DNA of 64,000 nucleotides from a virus (lineage: Duplodnaviria; Caudoviricetes), in the IMG/VR virus record IMGVR_UViG_3300031994_000010, positions 64,001 through 128,000 of that record. The stretch is one strand, 5' to 3'. Both the position numbers and the translations under genes were made by a program. Below the pieces are notes generated by a model, which did not search any database, was not told the DNA's origin, and worked only from the letters and a program-made list of their open reading frames with translations. Positions 53,724 to 54,325 of the stretch are shown piece by piece; position 1 is the stretch's first letter; every line of letters starts with the position of its first letter.

Positions 53724-54325
53724 TACCCCAAGCAGGACTCGAACCTGCGACCCATTGCTTAGCTTACCACACTATGTTACCATAGCCAAACAATTAAAGG
53801 AACTTTCGTGGAATTTGTATATTTATACTATATGTTCCTCTCACTTCATACATATTACTATGCACCTTCTTCGAGTTGTTTGTTGTAGTCTGGAATACAT
53901 TATTACCCTATCGAAATTCTTGCAAGTAATAACTTTTCCGTTAAAACGAGCTTTATCTGCCCTAGGAATCATTATAATTTCAACTTAGGTATCTCCTCTA
54001 TATTCTCTACACATTTATGATACTTACATATTGATTTTTACACGATAACTCCGAGTTAATTCTCAATTAAGTATGCACATAGGTTTGCAAGCTATCCACA
54101 TACGTTATAGTCAATAAAATATCAATAGTTTTCTCAATTTAGCACGGTATTATCCTTACACATTATTGGTTAGTGTTCTGTCCCTACGGTGCTGCTATAA
54201 CAGATTTCGTGTTGCAGGGTTGAGGAAAGGACTTCCACCGTTTTAGGGAGATTCTAACAAGGACTTTCGTGCCTTGTCACTCCTTTTTTTAAGGCAATTG
54301 CTCTAATCCACTGAGCTATTGGGGC
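53724..54325 (-). tRNA. tRNA-Arg(TCT), split by group I intron (exons 54325-54291 and 53762-53724)
   Basis: Joined exons give GCCCCAA..AGTGGATTA..ATTGC-CT-T^CT-AA-GCAAT..GGTTCGAGTCC..TTGGGGTA. Confidence 0.88.
53763..54290 (-). mobile_element. Group I intron (528 nt, no ORF)
   Basis: 5' exon ends in U, intron ends in G; P AAAACGGTGGAAGTCC, Q AATACCGTGCTAA, R GTAGAGAATATA, S AATGTATTCC; P3 GAATCTCC/GGAGATAC. Confidence 0.85.

What the first reader, a model, noticed from the sequence alone, without database searches (positions are those of the whole stretch)
53724..54325. ORF-less group I intron inside the anticodon of a phage tRNA-Arg(UCU)
Seen: tRNA halves separated by 528 nt with group I P/Q/R/S elements, terminal G, U at the 5' splice site, and a compensated P7 (GAAUA/UAUUC instead of the usual GACUA/UAGUC). 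Insertion is between positions 34 and 35, the site known for cyanobacterial/plastid tRNA-Leu(UAA) introns, but in an Arg(UCU) tRNA of a phage. Without a homing endonuclease its retention suggests function (splicing-controlled AGA decoding, or shielding the anticodon from nucleases until spliced). Standard tRNA scans would miss it.
Basis: partly seen in the sequence, partly recalled or inferred. Interest (0 to 1): 0.75.

Follow-up and report, generated by a model that had tools for sequence, protein, structure and literature searches.

The report
Self-splicing intron in phage tRNA-Arg gene
A 174-kb crAss-like gut phage keeps its arginine tRNA (the one that reads AGA, its main arginine codon) in two halves separated by a 528-base group I intron of the family known from bacterial tRNA genes. 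The intron is real and hidden from standard tRNA finders, but it looks like a mobile passenger, not a purpose-built switch.

Summary
On the minus strand, window 54325-54291 and 53762-53724 are the two halves of a canonical tRNA-Arg(UCU). They are separated by 528 nt (54290-53763) inserted between nucleotides 34 and 35.

The insert has the sequence and fold of a subgroup IC3 group I intron; splicing itself was not tested:
- It has a U.G wobble at the 5' splice site, a terminal G, and a P3/P7 pseudoknot with the G-binding pair.
- It has a GAAA-capped P2 and an 11-nt receptor in P8.
- Covariation across 27 relatives supports the fold.

Rfam's group I model misses it. It does score bacterial tRNA introns that share the same core, and models built from those bacterial introns hit this phage only at its three intron-bearing tRNA genes.

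The P7 change (GAAUA/UAUUC) keeps the pairing: relatives have C-G or G.U at that pair.

There is no ORF.

The same genome, outside the window, also carries an intron-split tRNA-Leu(UAA) and an intron-split amber suppressor tRNA(CUA), in a phage that reads TAG as sense.

This scan has already reported intron-split tRNAs in phages on other DNA (98 earlier notes match the query, in at least 68 genomes). I found no paper describing them.

The parts
54291..54325 (-). tRNA-Arg(UCU) 5' exon: acceptor strand, D arm, 5' strand of the anticodon stem, and C32 U33 U34.
   Evidence: ARAGORN -i call; ends in CCUU.
53763..54290 (-). Group I (IC3-type) intron, 528 nt, with no ORF.
   Evidence: ORF checks.
53724..53762 (-). 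tRNA-Arg(UCU) 3' exon: C35 U36 A37 A38, 3' strand of the anticodon stem, variable loop, T arm, acceptor strand and discriminator A. No CCA is encoded.
54280..54282 (-). Internal guide sequence GAG (intron nt 9-11). It pairs with exon CUU (54293-54291) to form P1, with the G9.U-1 wobble at the 5' splice site. G8 and A7 (54283-54284) can pair with C+1 and U+2 of the 3' exon (P10).
   Evidence: The guide covaries with the exon across the family.
54257..54277 (-). P2 hairpin (intron 14-34) capped by a GAAA tetraloop.
   Evidence: 7 of 8 pairs change on both sides. (two compensatory changes in ortholog L228).
54247..54252 (-). P3 5' strand (intron 39-44). It pairs with 53991-53996.
   Evidence: 99% of cells paired; three pairs change on both sides in the same-genome suppressor-tRNA intron.
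54236..54240 (-). P4 5' strand (intron 51-55, the 'P' element). It pairs with 54145-54149 (the 'Q' element).
54152..54232 (-). P5 (59-64 with 134-139) enclosing a variable extension and a conserved hairpin (115-133) with an 11-nt loop.
54018..54136 (-). P6 (155-157 with 271-273) enclosing a roughly 110-nt insertion specific to this window.
   Evidence: 98% paired.
54001..54007 (-). P7 5' strand G[A]GAAUA (intron 284-290, the 'R' element), with bulged A285 and G286 of the G-binding pair.
53991..53996 (-). P3 3' strand (intron 295-300).
53905..53990 (-). P8 (301-315 with 373-386). It holds the 11-nt tetraloop-receptor motif CCUAAG...UAGGG and a conserved CUUGCAAG bulge (53919-53926).
   Evidence: (99% paired; 7 of 9 distal pairs change on both sides).
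53892..53897 (-). P7 3' strand UAUUCC (intron 394-399, the 'S' element). C398 pairs with G286.
53766..53889 (-). P9.0-like helix (402-406 with 521-525), P9 (409-415 with 498-504) around a variable insert, and a terminal hairpin with a GUAA loop (505-520).
   Evidence: 93% paired; C-G to U-A covariation.
53763..53763 (-). Terminal G of the intron (omega G, nt 528).

Best explanation
This is a functional tRNA-Arg(UCU) gene interrupted by an ORF-less, self-splicing group I intron. The intron belongs to the IC3 family that lives in bacterial tRNA anticodon loops.

Inferred mechanism, from the anatomy and established group I chemistry:
1. The gene is transcribed with the minus-strand tRNA array.
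2. The intron folds. Exon CUU pairs with the guide GAG (P1), placing the U34.G9 wobble at the cleavage site.
3. A free guanosine bound at the G286-C398 pair of P7 attacks after U34.
4. The terminal G528 then takes the same pocket, positioned by the P9.0 helix and a 2-bp P10.
5. The exons are joined to give the anticodon loop CUUCUAA.
6. RNase P, 3' trimming and CCA addition finish the tRNA.

The phage needs the product, because AGA makes up 66% of its arginine codons. The ribozyme core is therefore kept under selection.

The intron itself is best read as a mobile passenger. It reached this tRNA from another gene offering the same CUU target, as tRNA-Leu(UAA) does, either by reverse splicing or with an endonuclease supplied by a relative. 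It is not a device evolved to regulate decoding.
For: Identity:
- The exons are exact.
- The fold is supported by covariation: 83% of cells paired against 36-44% in slid controls; 37 pairs change on both sides against 7-18; 0 of 500 shuffles reach it.
- The core motif GUGUAGAGA-N-UA-N10-ACCUAAG is shared with at least 120 bacterial loci. Almost all are tRNA-Leu(UAA), tRNA(CAU) or tRNA-Arg(CCU) introns.
- Of the six such loci put to Rfam, five matched Intron_gpI at 45.9-61.9 bits, four of them above the gathering score of 50; the sixth gave no match.
- An nhmmer profile of 105 bacterial introns hits the 174-kb genome only at its three intron-bearing tRNAs. It gives 29.6 bits for the window's core once the inserts are removed, and 0 of 500 shuffles hit.
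- A covariance model built only from bacterial introns scores 107 bits on the same-genome suppressor-tRNA intron, 44 bits on the Leu intron, 25 bits on the ortholog L228, and 17.6 bits (E 1.8e-5) on the window.

Splice sites:
- The guide covaries with the exon in five contexts: CUU/GAG, CAU/GUG, UCU/GGA, ACU/GGU, CUCU/GGAG.
- The base 5' of the guide covaries with +1 of the 3' exon: U-A, G-C, C-G, A-U.

Selection on the core:
- Ortholog L228 has the same upstream ORF and the same exon. It keeps P2 through two compensatory changes and P7 as G.U, while its P5, P6 and P8 inserts differ.

Passenger reading:
- The Arg-34/35 introns (window and L026) form a supported clade. It is nested among Leu, Ser and Arg-36/37 introns.
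- One relative carries an HNH/NUMOD homing endonuclease.
- Intronless phage tRNA-Arg(UCU) genes are common.

Need for the tRNA: AGA is 66% of Arg codons, and no other Arg tRNA was found in the genome.
Against: - No splicing data of any kind.
- Rfam's Intron_gpI gives no match at all to the window, even at E up to 10.
- The bacterial covariance model aligns only the 5' half of the window's intron correctly.
- The intron is 2-2.5 times longer than the bacterial relatives fetched here, and the large inserts could slow folding or require a protein helper.
- P6 is only 3 bp in this copy.
- The tRNA has a G1.U72 pair.
- Every copy of this particular tRNA-Arg that I could find (window, L227, L228) carries the intron. 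Presence/absence polymorphism at this locus is therefore not shown.
- The tree is unrooted, so the direction of transfer (Leu to Arg) is inference.
Confidence: 0.82

Rival explanations
1. Splicing-gated decoding. The intron is kept because it makes supply of tRNA-Arg(UCU) depend on ribozyme activity, for example on GTP or Mg2+ level, temperature, or a phage or host protein. The same would apply to the phage's tRNA-Leu(UAA) and amber suppressor. Translation of AGA-rich and TAG-containing phage genes would then be timed by splicing.
For: - Three tRNAs of one genome are split, including the only candidate TAG reader in a phage that reads TAG as sense.
- AGA is the main Arg codon.
- All three copies of this tRNA-Arg that were found carry the intron.
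- There are large peripheral inserts and a conserved CUUGCAAG bulge of unknown role.
Against: - The three introns are not each other's nearest relatives (65-67% identity, and the tree). They look like separate arrivals.
- The inserts differ between orthologs.
- The family is scattered over many tRNA types, several insertion sites and a protein gene.
- Intronless versions of the same tRNA types exist in other phages.
- Nothing in the sequence suggests a sensor.
Confidence: 0.1
2. Decayed intron in a dead tRNA gene. The ribozyme no longer splices and the phage relies on the host's tRNA-Arg for AGA.
For: - Rfam finds nothing.
- P6 is weakened to 3 bp.
- The receptor reads UAGGG instead of UAUGG.
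- The intron is swollen with inserts.
Against: - Every core helix is intact in the window.
- Changes relative to the ortholog are compensatory.
- The P7 change keeps the pair.
- UAGGG also occurs in bacterial introns with the same core, including locus L157, which Rfam scores above threshold.
- The exons are undamaged.
Confidence: 0.06
3. Anticodon shield. The intron hides the anticodon loop of the precursor from host anticodon nucleases until late in infection.
For: Only the general fact (background knowledge) that hosts use anticodon nucleases against phages and that phage tRNAs can counter them.
Against: The tRNA works only after splicing, when its loop is the ordinary CUUCUAA, the same as in the uninterrupted phage genes. 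The intron gives the mature tRNA no protection.
Confidence: 0.02

Closest known systems
[quoted passage not shown]
   Same: - Same insertion point (after U34) and same P1 target CUU with guide GAG.
- Same start (A-rich loop, then GAGUG) and same core motifs.
- Same 3' architecture: P9.0, P9, a capped hairpin, then terminal G.
- Relatives of the window's intron sit in phage tRNA-Leu(UAA) genes, one of them in this same genome.
- Among the bacterial relatives, a tRNA-Leu intron in a Bacteroidales MAG (L207) looks most like the phage family in its 3' terminal hairpin (read by eye).
   Different: - The host gene is tRNA-Arg(UCU), so the 3' exon starts CU, not AA, and the P10 guide base is G, not U.
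- It lies in a phage genome.
- It is 528 nt, against 122-376 nt (mostly 194-266) for the bacterial relatives fetched here, through inserts in P5, P6, P8 and P9.
tRNA-Arg(CCU) intron of alphaproteobacteria ('Arg.5Ug') and a tRNA-Arg(UCU) 36/37 intron found here in a gammaproteobacterium (L158)
   Same: IC3 core in an arginine tRNA anticodon loop.
   Different: Those sit after position 36, with guide GGA-type pairing to xCU. The window's sits after position 34. Phage Arg-36/37 introns (L004, L017) form a separate clade from the window's.
Azoarcus-type tRNA-Ile2(CAU) intron
   Same: - Shared core sequence, seen here in a Rhodocyclaceae locus (L157, Rfam 54.8 bits).
- GAAA-capped P2 and a CCUAAG/UA-N-GG receptor in P8.
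- That this loop and receptor dock in the solved Azoarcus structure is background knowledge, not tested here.
   Different: The insertion site is 36/37 and the guide is GUG. The intron is compact (about 205 nt).
Group I introns of phage protein-coding genes
   Same: A close relative of this very intron splits the primase gene of crAss-like phages cr116_1 and IAS virus.
   Different: The host gene here is a tRNA. A 2014 review states that all phage introns known then were in protein-coding genes, despite the many phage tRNA genes (PMC3984707).

Membership tests
Group I intron | P1 helix with a U.G wobble at the 5' splice site. | tested here: met
   Exon CUU pairs with intron G9 A10 G11. The guide changes with the exon in five contexts across relatives.
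Group I intron | Terminal guanosine (omega G) at the 3' splice site. | tested here: met
   G528 (window 53763). The conserved ...GUGGUAAG| ending and the P9.0 helix covary.
Group I intron | Conserved core: P3/P7 pseudoknot, the P4-P6 domain, and P8. | tested here: met
   P3 99%, P6 98%, P7 97-100% and P8 99% of cells paired, with changes on both sides. Slid controls give 36-44%. P4 and P5 are supported only within the window's own subfamily.
Group I intron | G-binding site in P7 (a G-C pair next to a bulged A). | tested here: met
   G284 [A285] G286...C398 C399 is invariant in all 27 sequences. It is identical to the bacterial introns that Rfam scores as group I.
Group I intron | Match to Rfam RF00028 at its gathering score. 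| tested here: not met
   No match even at E up to 10 for the window, nor for four relatives. The model does hit bacterial loci with the same core. According to Williams 2020 its seed holds no bacterial sequence.
Group I intron | Guanosine-dependent self-splicing. | not testable with these tools
   Needs in vitro transcription, or RNA from infected cells.
IC3 introns of bacterial tRNA genes | Inserted in the anticodon loop of a tRNA gene, with the exons forming the anticodon stem. | tested here: met
   Position 34/35; the stem AUUGC/GCAAU flanks the intron.
IC3 introns of bacterial tRNA genes | Sequence and structure match to models built from bacterial tRNA introns. | tested here: inconclusive
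   Covariance model R1: window 17.6 bits, E 1.8e-5, with only the 5' half aligned correctly. Ortholog L228 scores 25 bits; the same-genome introns score 107 and 44 bits. nhmmer gives 29.6 bits on the core once the inserts are removed by hand.
IC3 introns of bacterial tRNA genes | Compact size (about 200-250 nt). | tested here: not met
   528 nt. The third intron of the same genome is 202 nt.
Mobile group I intron with a homing endonuclease | An endonuclease ORF inside the intron. | tested here: not met
   The longest sense-strand frame is 53 aa, also with TAG read as Q, and there are no significant Pfam hits. Relative L035 has a NUMOD4-HNH-NUMOD1 ORF.

The most novel reading that the evidence does not exclude
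The three intron-split tRNAs of this phage act together as a ribozyme-dependent gate. They are Arg-UCU for its main Arg codon, Leu-UAA, and the only candidate TAG-reading tRNA in a genome that reads TAG as sense. Under this reading, efficient translation of phage genes, and the switch to the TAG-sense code, would wait for or respond to group I splicing.
Probability: 0.08. Interest if true: 0.85.

Novelty: new member of a known kind. Interest (0 to 1): 0.5.

Why it matters
- tRNA finders run in their default mode skip genes like this one (default ARAGORN and the Rfam tRNA model did here). Phage tRNA inventories, and the codon-usage or code-reassignment arguments built on them, are therefore incomplete.
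- In this genome the hidden set includes the tRNA for the main Arg codon and, outside the window, the amber suppressor. Papers on large crAss-like phages report that suppressor as undetectable in some recoded genomes (PMC7886860, PMC12386605).
- The case extends bacterial-type tRNA introns to phages. The 2014 review of bacterial group I introns said none were known there (PMC3984707).
- One intron family has retargeted itself to many tRNAs by changing a 3-nt guide. This is comparative evidence of the kind usually cited for spread by reverse splicing, and the family makes that testable.

Tried and rejected
- **Rfam.** Gathering and E-value modes on the window and on four relatives gave no group I match. 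I traced this to the model, not the sequence.
- **A second candidate P7.** My first alternative took GACUA at intron 400-404 as the 5' strand of P7, with UAGU downstream. Relatives show that stretch pairs with the last bases before the terminal G (P9.0).
- **Alternative P1.** Exon UGCCUU could pair with AAGGCA inside P2 (6 bp). This is not kept in ortholog L228, so it is probably chance.
- **Alternative 5' splice site.** A site two bases upstream would give a CUA anticodon, and ARAGORN accepts that product. I rejected it: C at -1, only a 2-bp P1, C33, and a 4-bp stem.
- **Bacterial tRNA-Arg(UCU) 34/35 intron.** ARAGORN's 'Arg tct' for L156 is a miscalled tRNA-Leu.
- **Intronless allele of this exact tRNA.** There was no exact 33-nt match in IMG/VR. 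The two JGI metagenome matches both carry the intron.
- **Host tRNA of L036.** It could not be settled.
- **ARAGORN -i artefacts.** It also makes chimeric false calls, for example Glu and Lys joined at genome 121151-121850. I did not rely on it alone.

Full report
**What is there**

The finding lies on the minus strand. Window 54325-54291 reads as the 5' half of a tRNA: acceptor strand, D arm, anticodon-stem strand AUUGC, then C32 U33 U34. Window 53762-53724 reads as the 3' half: C35 U36 A37 A38, stem strand GCAAU, a 5-nt variable loop, T arm, acceptor strand and discriminator A. The two halves are 528 nt apart.

Default ARAGORN and the Rfam tRNA model list 14 tRNAs in the window and miss this one. 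ARAGORN with intron search calls tRNA-Arg(tct) with a 528-nt intron. A 29-nt pattern (two degenerate positions) covering the joined anticodon arm occurs uninterrupted in 49 IMG/VR viral loci; ten carry the window's own variant. The predicted ligation product is therefore an ordinary tRNA-Arg(UCU).

Only one junction gives U33, a 5-bp stem, a 7-nt loop, U at -1 and G at the intron's end. ARAGORN also accepts a product spliced two bases upstream (anticodon CUA), but that product fails those criteria.

**What the insert is**

Rfam gives no group I match to the window, even at E up to 10. Comparison with relatives settles the question.

A 45-nt core matches crAss-like phages cr116_1 and IAS virus, where it lies in a gap that splits the primase gene. 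A pattern for the core found 38 IMG/VR loci. With intron search, most are split tRNA genes:
- tRNA-Leu(UAA) at 34/35 or 33/34
- tRNA-Arg(UCU) at 36/37 (L004, L017) or 34/35 (L026)
- tRNA(CAU)
- tRNA-Ser(UGA)

I mapped a P1-P9 fold onto the window and counted it on a 27-sequence alignment:
- 83% of cells are paired, against 36-44% for partners slid by 1-3 columns.
- 37 pairs change on both sides, against 7-18 in the slid controls.
- No shuffle out of 500 reaches the observed pairing or covariation score.
- P3, P6, P7, P8 and the P9.0 helix are 93-100% paired.
- P4 and P5 are supported only within the window's own subfamily; the other subfamily has a different P4-P5 region that does not align.

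The anatomy is that of an IC3 intron:
- a GAAA-capped P2
- a P3/P7 pseudoknot
- an invariant G[A]G...CC in P7 (the G-binding pair with its bulged A)
- CCUAAG...UA-N-GG in P8
- a terminal G after a helix that ties J7/9 to the 3' end

**Link to known group I introns**

ARAGORN reads them mainly as tRNA-Leu(UAA), tRNA(CAU) and tRNA-Arg(CCU) introns, which are the classical bacterial classes (classes as listed by Williams 2020).

- Of six such loci put to Rfam, five matched Intron_gpI at 45.9-61.9 bits, four of them above the gathering score of 50; the sixth gave no match.
- An nhmmer profile of 105 of these introns hits the phage's 174-kb genome at exactly three places, all of them intron-bearing tRNAs.
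- With the window's peripheral inserts cut out, its core aligns to profile positions 24-210 at 29.6 bits, and none of 500 shuffles hit. I chose the segments to keep, so this is supportive, not independent.
- A covariance model built from 29 bacterial introns alone scores 107 bits on the compact intron of the same genome, 44 bits on its Leu intron, 25 bits on the ortholog L228 and 17.6 bits (E 1.8e-5) on the window. For the window only the 5' half aligns properly, because a 110-nt insert sits in P6.

**Splice sites**

The 3-4 nt guide just before P2 changes with the exon it must pair with: CUU/GAG (Leu, Ser and Arg at 34/35, including the window), CAU/GUG, UCU/GGA, ACU/GGU and CUCU/GGAG. In each of these five the first G faces U-1. 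One relative (L018) has AAG instead, which puts an A-U pair at the splice site.

The base 5' of the guide changes with the first base of the 3' exon: U with A, G with C (the window), C with G, A with U. This is the P1/P10 logic of group I introns, and it fixes the window's junctions.

**The P7 remark**

Among 41 family members (this window and 40 loci), the third P7 pair has C (22) or G (18) on the 5' strand and only the window has A. Wherever the 3' strand was found, it reads G opposite C and U opposite G or A, so pairing is always kept.

The orthologous intron in metagenome contig L228 has the same upstream ORF and the same exon. It has G.U at that pair, so the window's A-U probably arose by a single G-to-A change. 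L228 also keeps P2 through two compensatory changes, while its P5, P6 and P8 inserts are different sequences. This is the signature of selection on the ribozyme core and not on the periphery.

**No ORF**

On the sense strand no frame exceeds 53 aa, even with TAG read as Q. The antisense frames have no Pfam match. A tRNA-Leu relative (L035) carries a NUMOD4-HNH-NUMOD1 endonuclease in its P9 region, so the family includes mobile members.

**Context**

- The DNA polymerase of the window is 41-45% identical to those of crAss-like Bacteroides phages.
- The genome is 174,440 bp and 31.8% G+C.
- Reading TAG as sense doubles the DNA in long ORFs, from 67 kb to 146 kb. AGA is 66% of Arg codons.
- No other Arg tRNA was found.
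- Outside the window the genome has two more split tRNAs. One is tRNA-Leu(UAA) (L041).
- The other is a Gln-like tRNA (L042) whose best reading is an amber suppressor (CUA) split at 35/36 by a 202-nt intron. That reading rests on a perfect anticodon stem, a 4-bp P1, a better ARAGORN score, and an uninterrupted relative in L223.

**How it most likely works, and why it is there**

The splicing pathway is inferred from the anatomy and from established group I chemistry; nothing here shows activity. On origin:
- The window's intron groups with the other Arg-34/35 intron (L026, support 98/93).
- That pair sits inside a set of Leu, Ser and Arg-36/37 introns.
- The three introns of this genome are not each other's nearest relatives.

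Arg(UCU), Leu(UAA) and Ser(UGA) all offer C32 U33 U34, the target of the unchanged guide GAG. Together with that, the pattern fits a mobile element hopping between tRNAs. Direction cannot be read from an unrooted tree.

[quoted passage not shown] Williams 2020 counts 21 tRNA/site classes, but its table is an image I could not read. The 2014 review states that all phage introns then known were in protein-coding genes.

Papers on crAss-like phages detect introns through their endonuclease proteins, and they remark that suppressor tRNAs are sometimes undetectable in recoded genomes. Six full-text searches found no paper on phage tRNA introns. The library is incomplete, so this is not proof of absence.

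This scan has itself reported intron-split suppressor tRNAs in phages before; 98 earlier notes match that query, in at least 68 genomes.

Noticed in passing
L042:457-731 (G000:C1:153756-154030, plus strand; about 25.8 kb beyond the window's end): A Gln-like tRNA (U1-A72) split by a compact 202-nt group I intron. The best reading is an amber suppressor, anticodon CUA, with the intron between U35 and A36. This is in a genome that reads TAG as sense and has no other detectable suppressor. The bacterial-intron covariance model scores it 107 bits.
   Followed up: partly
L041:188-760 (G000:C1:144087-144659, minus strand; outside the window): tRNA-Leu(UAA) split at the classic 34/35 site by an intron of about 495 nt of the same family. 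ARAGORN miscalls it Phe(aaa).
   Followed up: partly
L001:1339-1931 (cr116_1, MT774389) and the matching region of L002 (IAS virus, KJ003983): The gap between two annotated primase pieces holds a close relative of this intron. The frame stays open from the intron's 3' end (about L001:1791) into the downstream annotated CDS. The primase is therefore one gene split by an unannotated group I intron.
   Followed up: partly
window 53919-53926 (minus strand; intron 365-372): A palindromic CUUGCAAG is conserved as a bulge on the 3' strand of P8 in most family members. It is absent from the compact intron and from the bacterial relatives. Its role is unknown.
   Followed up: no
L011, L012, L015, L025 and relatives, P9 region of their tRNA-Leu introns: A T-arm-like hairpin (GAGGGUUCGAAUCCCUU) lies inside the intron, as if a tRNA fragment had been captured.
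   Followed up: no
L027, L036, L039 (all from IMG/VR contig 3300021399_003927, 129 kb): Three copies of the intron core lie in one phage contig. Several intron-bearing genes per genome is not peculiar to this phage.
   Followed up: no
L207, L120, L135, L168, L177 (Bacteroidales, Paludibacteraceae and Candidatus Enterocola MAGs): tRNA-Leu(UAA) introns in MAGs assigned to Bacteroidales and related gut taxa, a plausible host group since the window's polymerase is closest to those of Bacteroides phages. L207 shares the phage family's terminal hairpin almost exactly. This may be the source of the phage introns, or these may be phage contigs binned with bacteria.
   Followed up: no
whole genome G000 (window = C1:64001-128000): There are 699 in-frame TAG codons in long ORFs, against 197 CAG. 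The longest ORF grows from 757 to 3577 aa when TAG is read as sense.
   Followed up: partly
L018, tRNA-Leu intron: Its guide is AAG, which gives an A-U pair instead of the usual G.U wobble at the 5' splice site.
   Followed up: no
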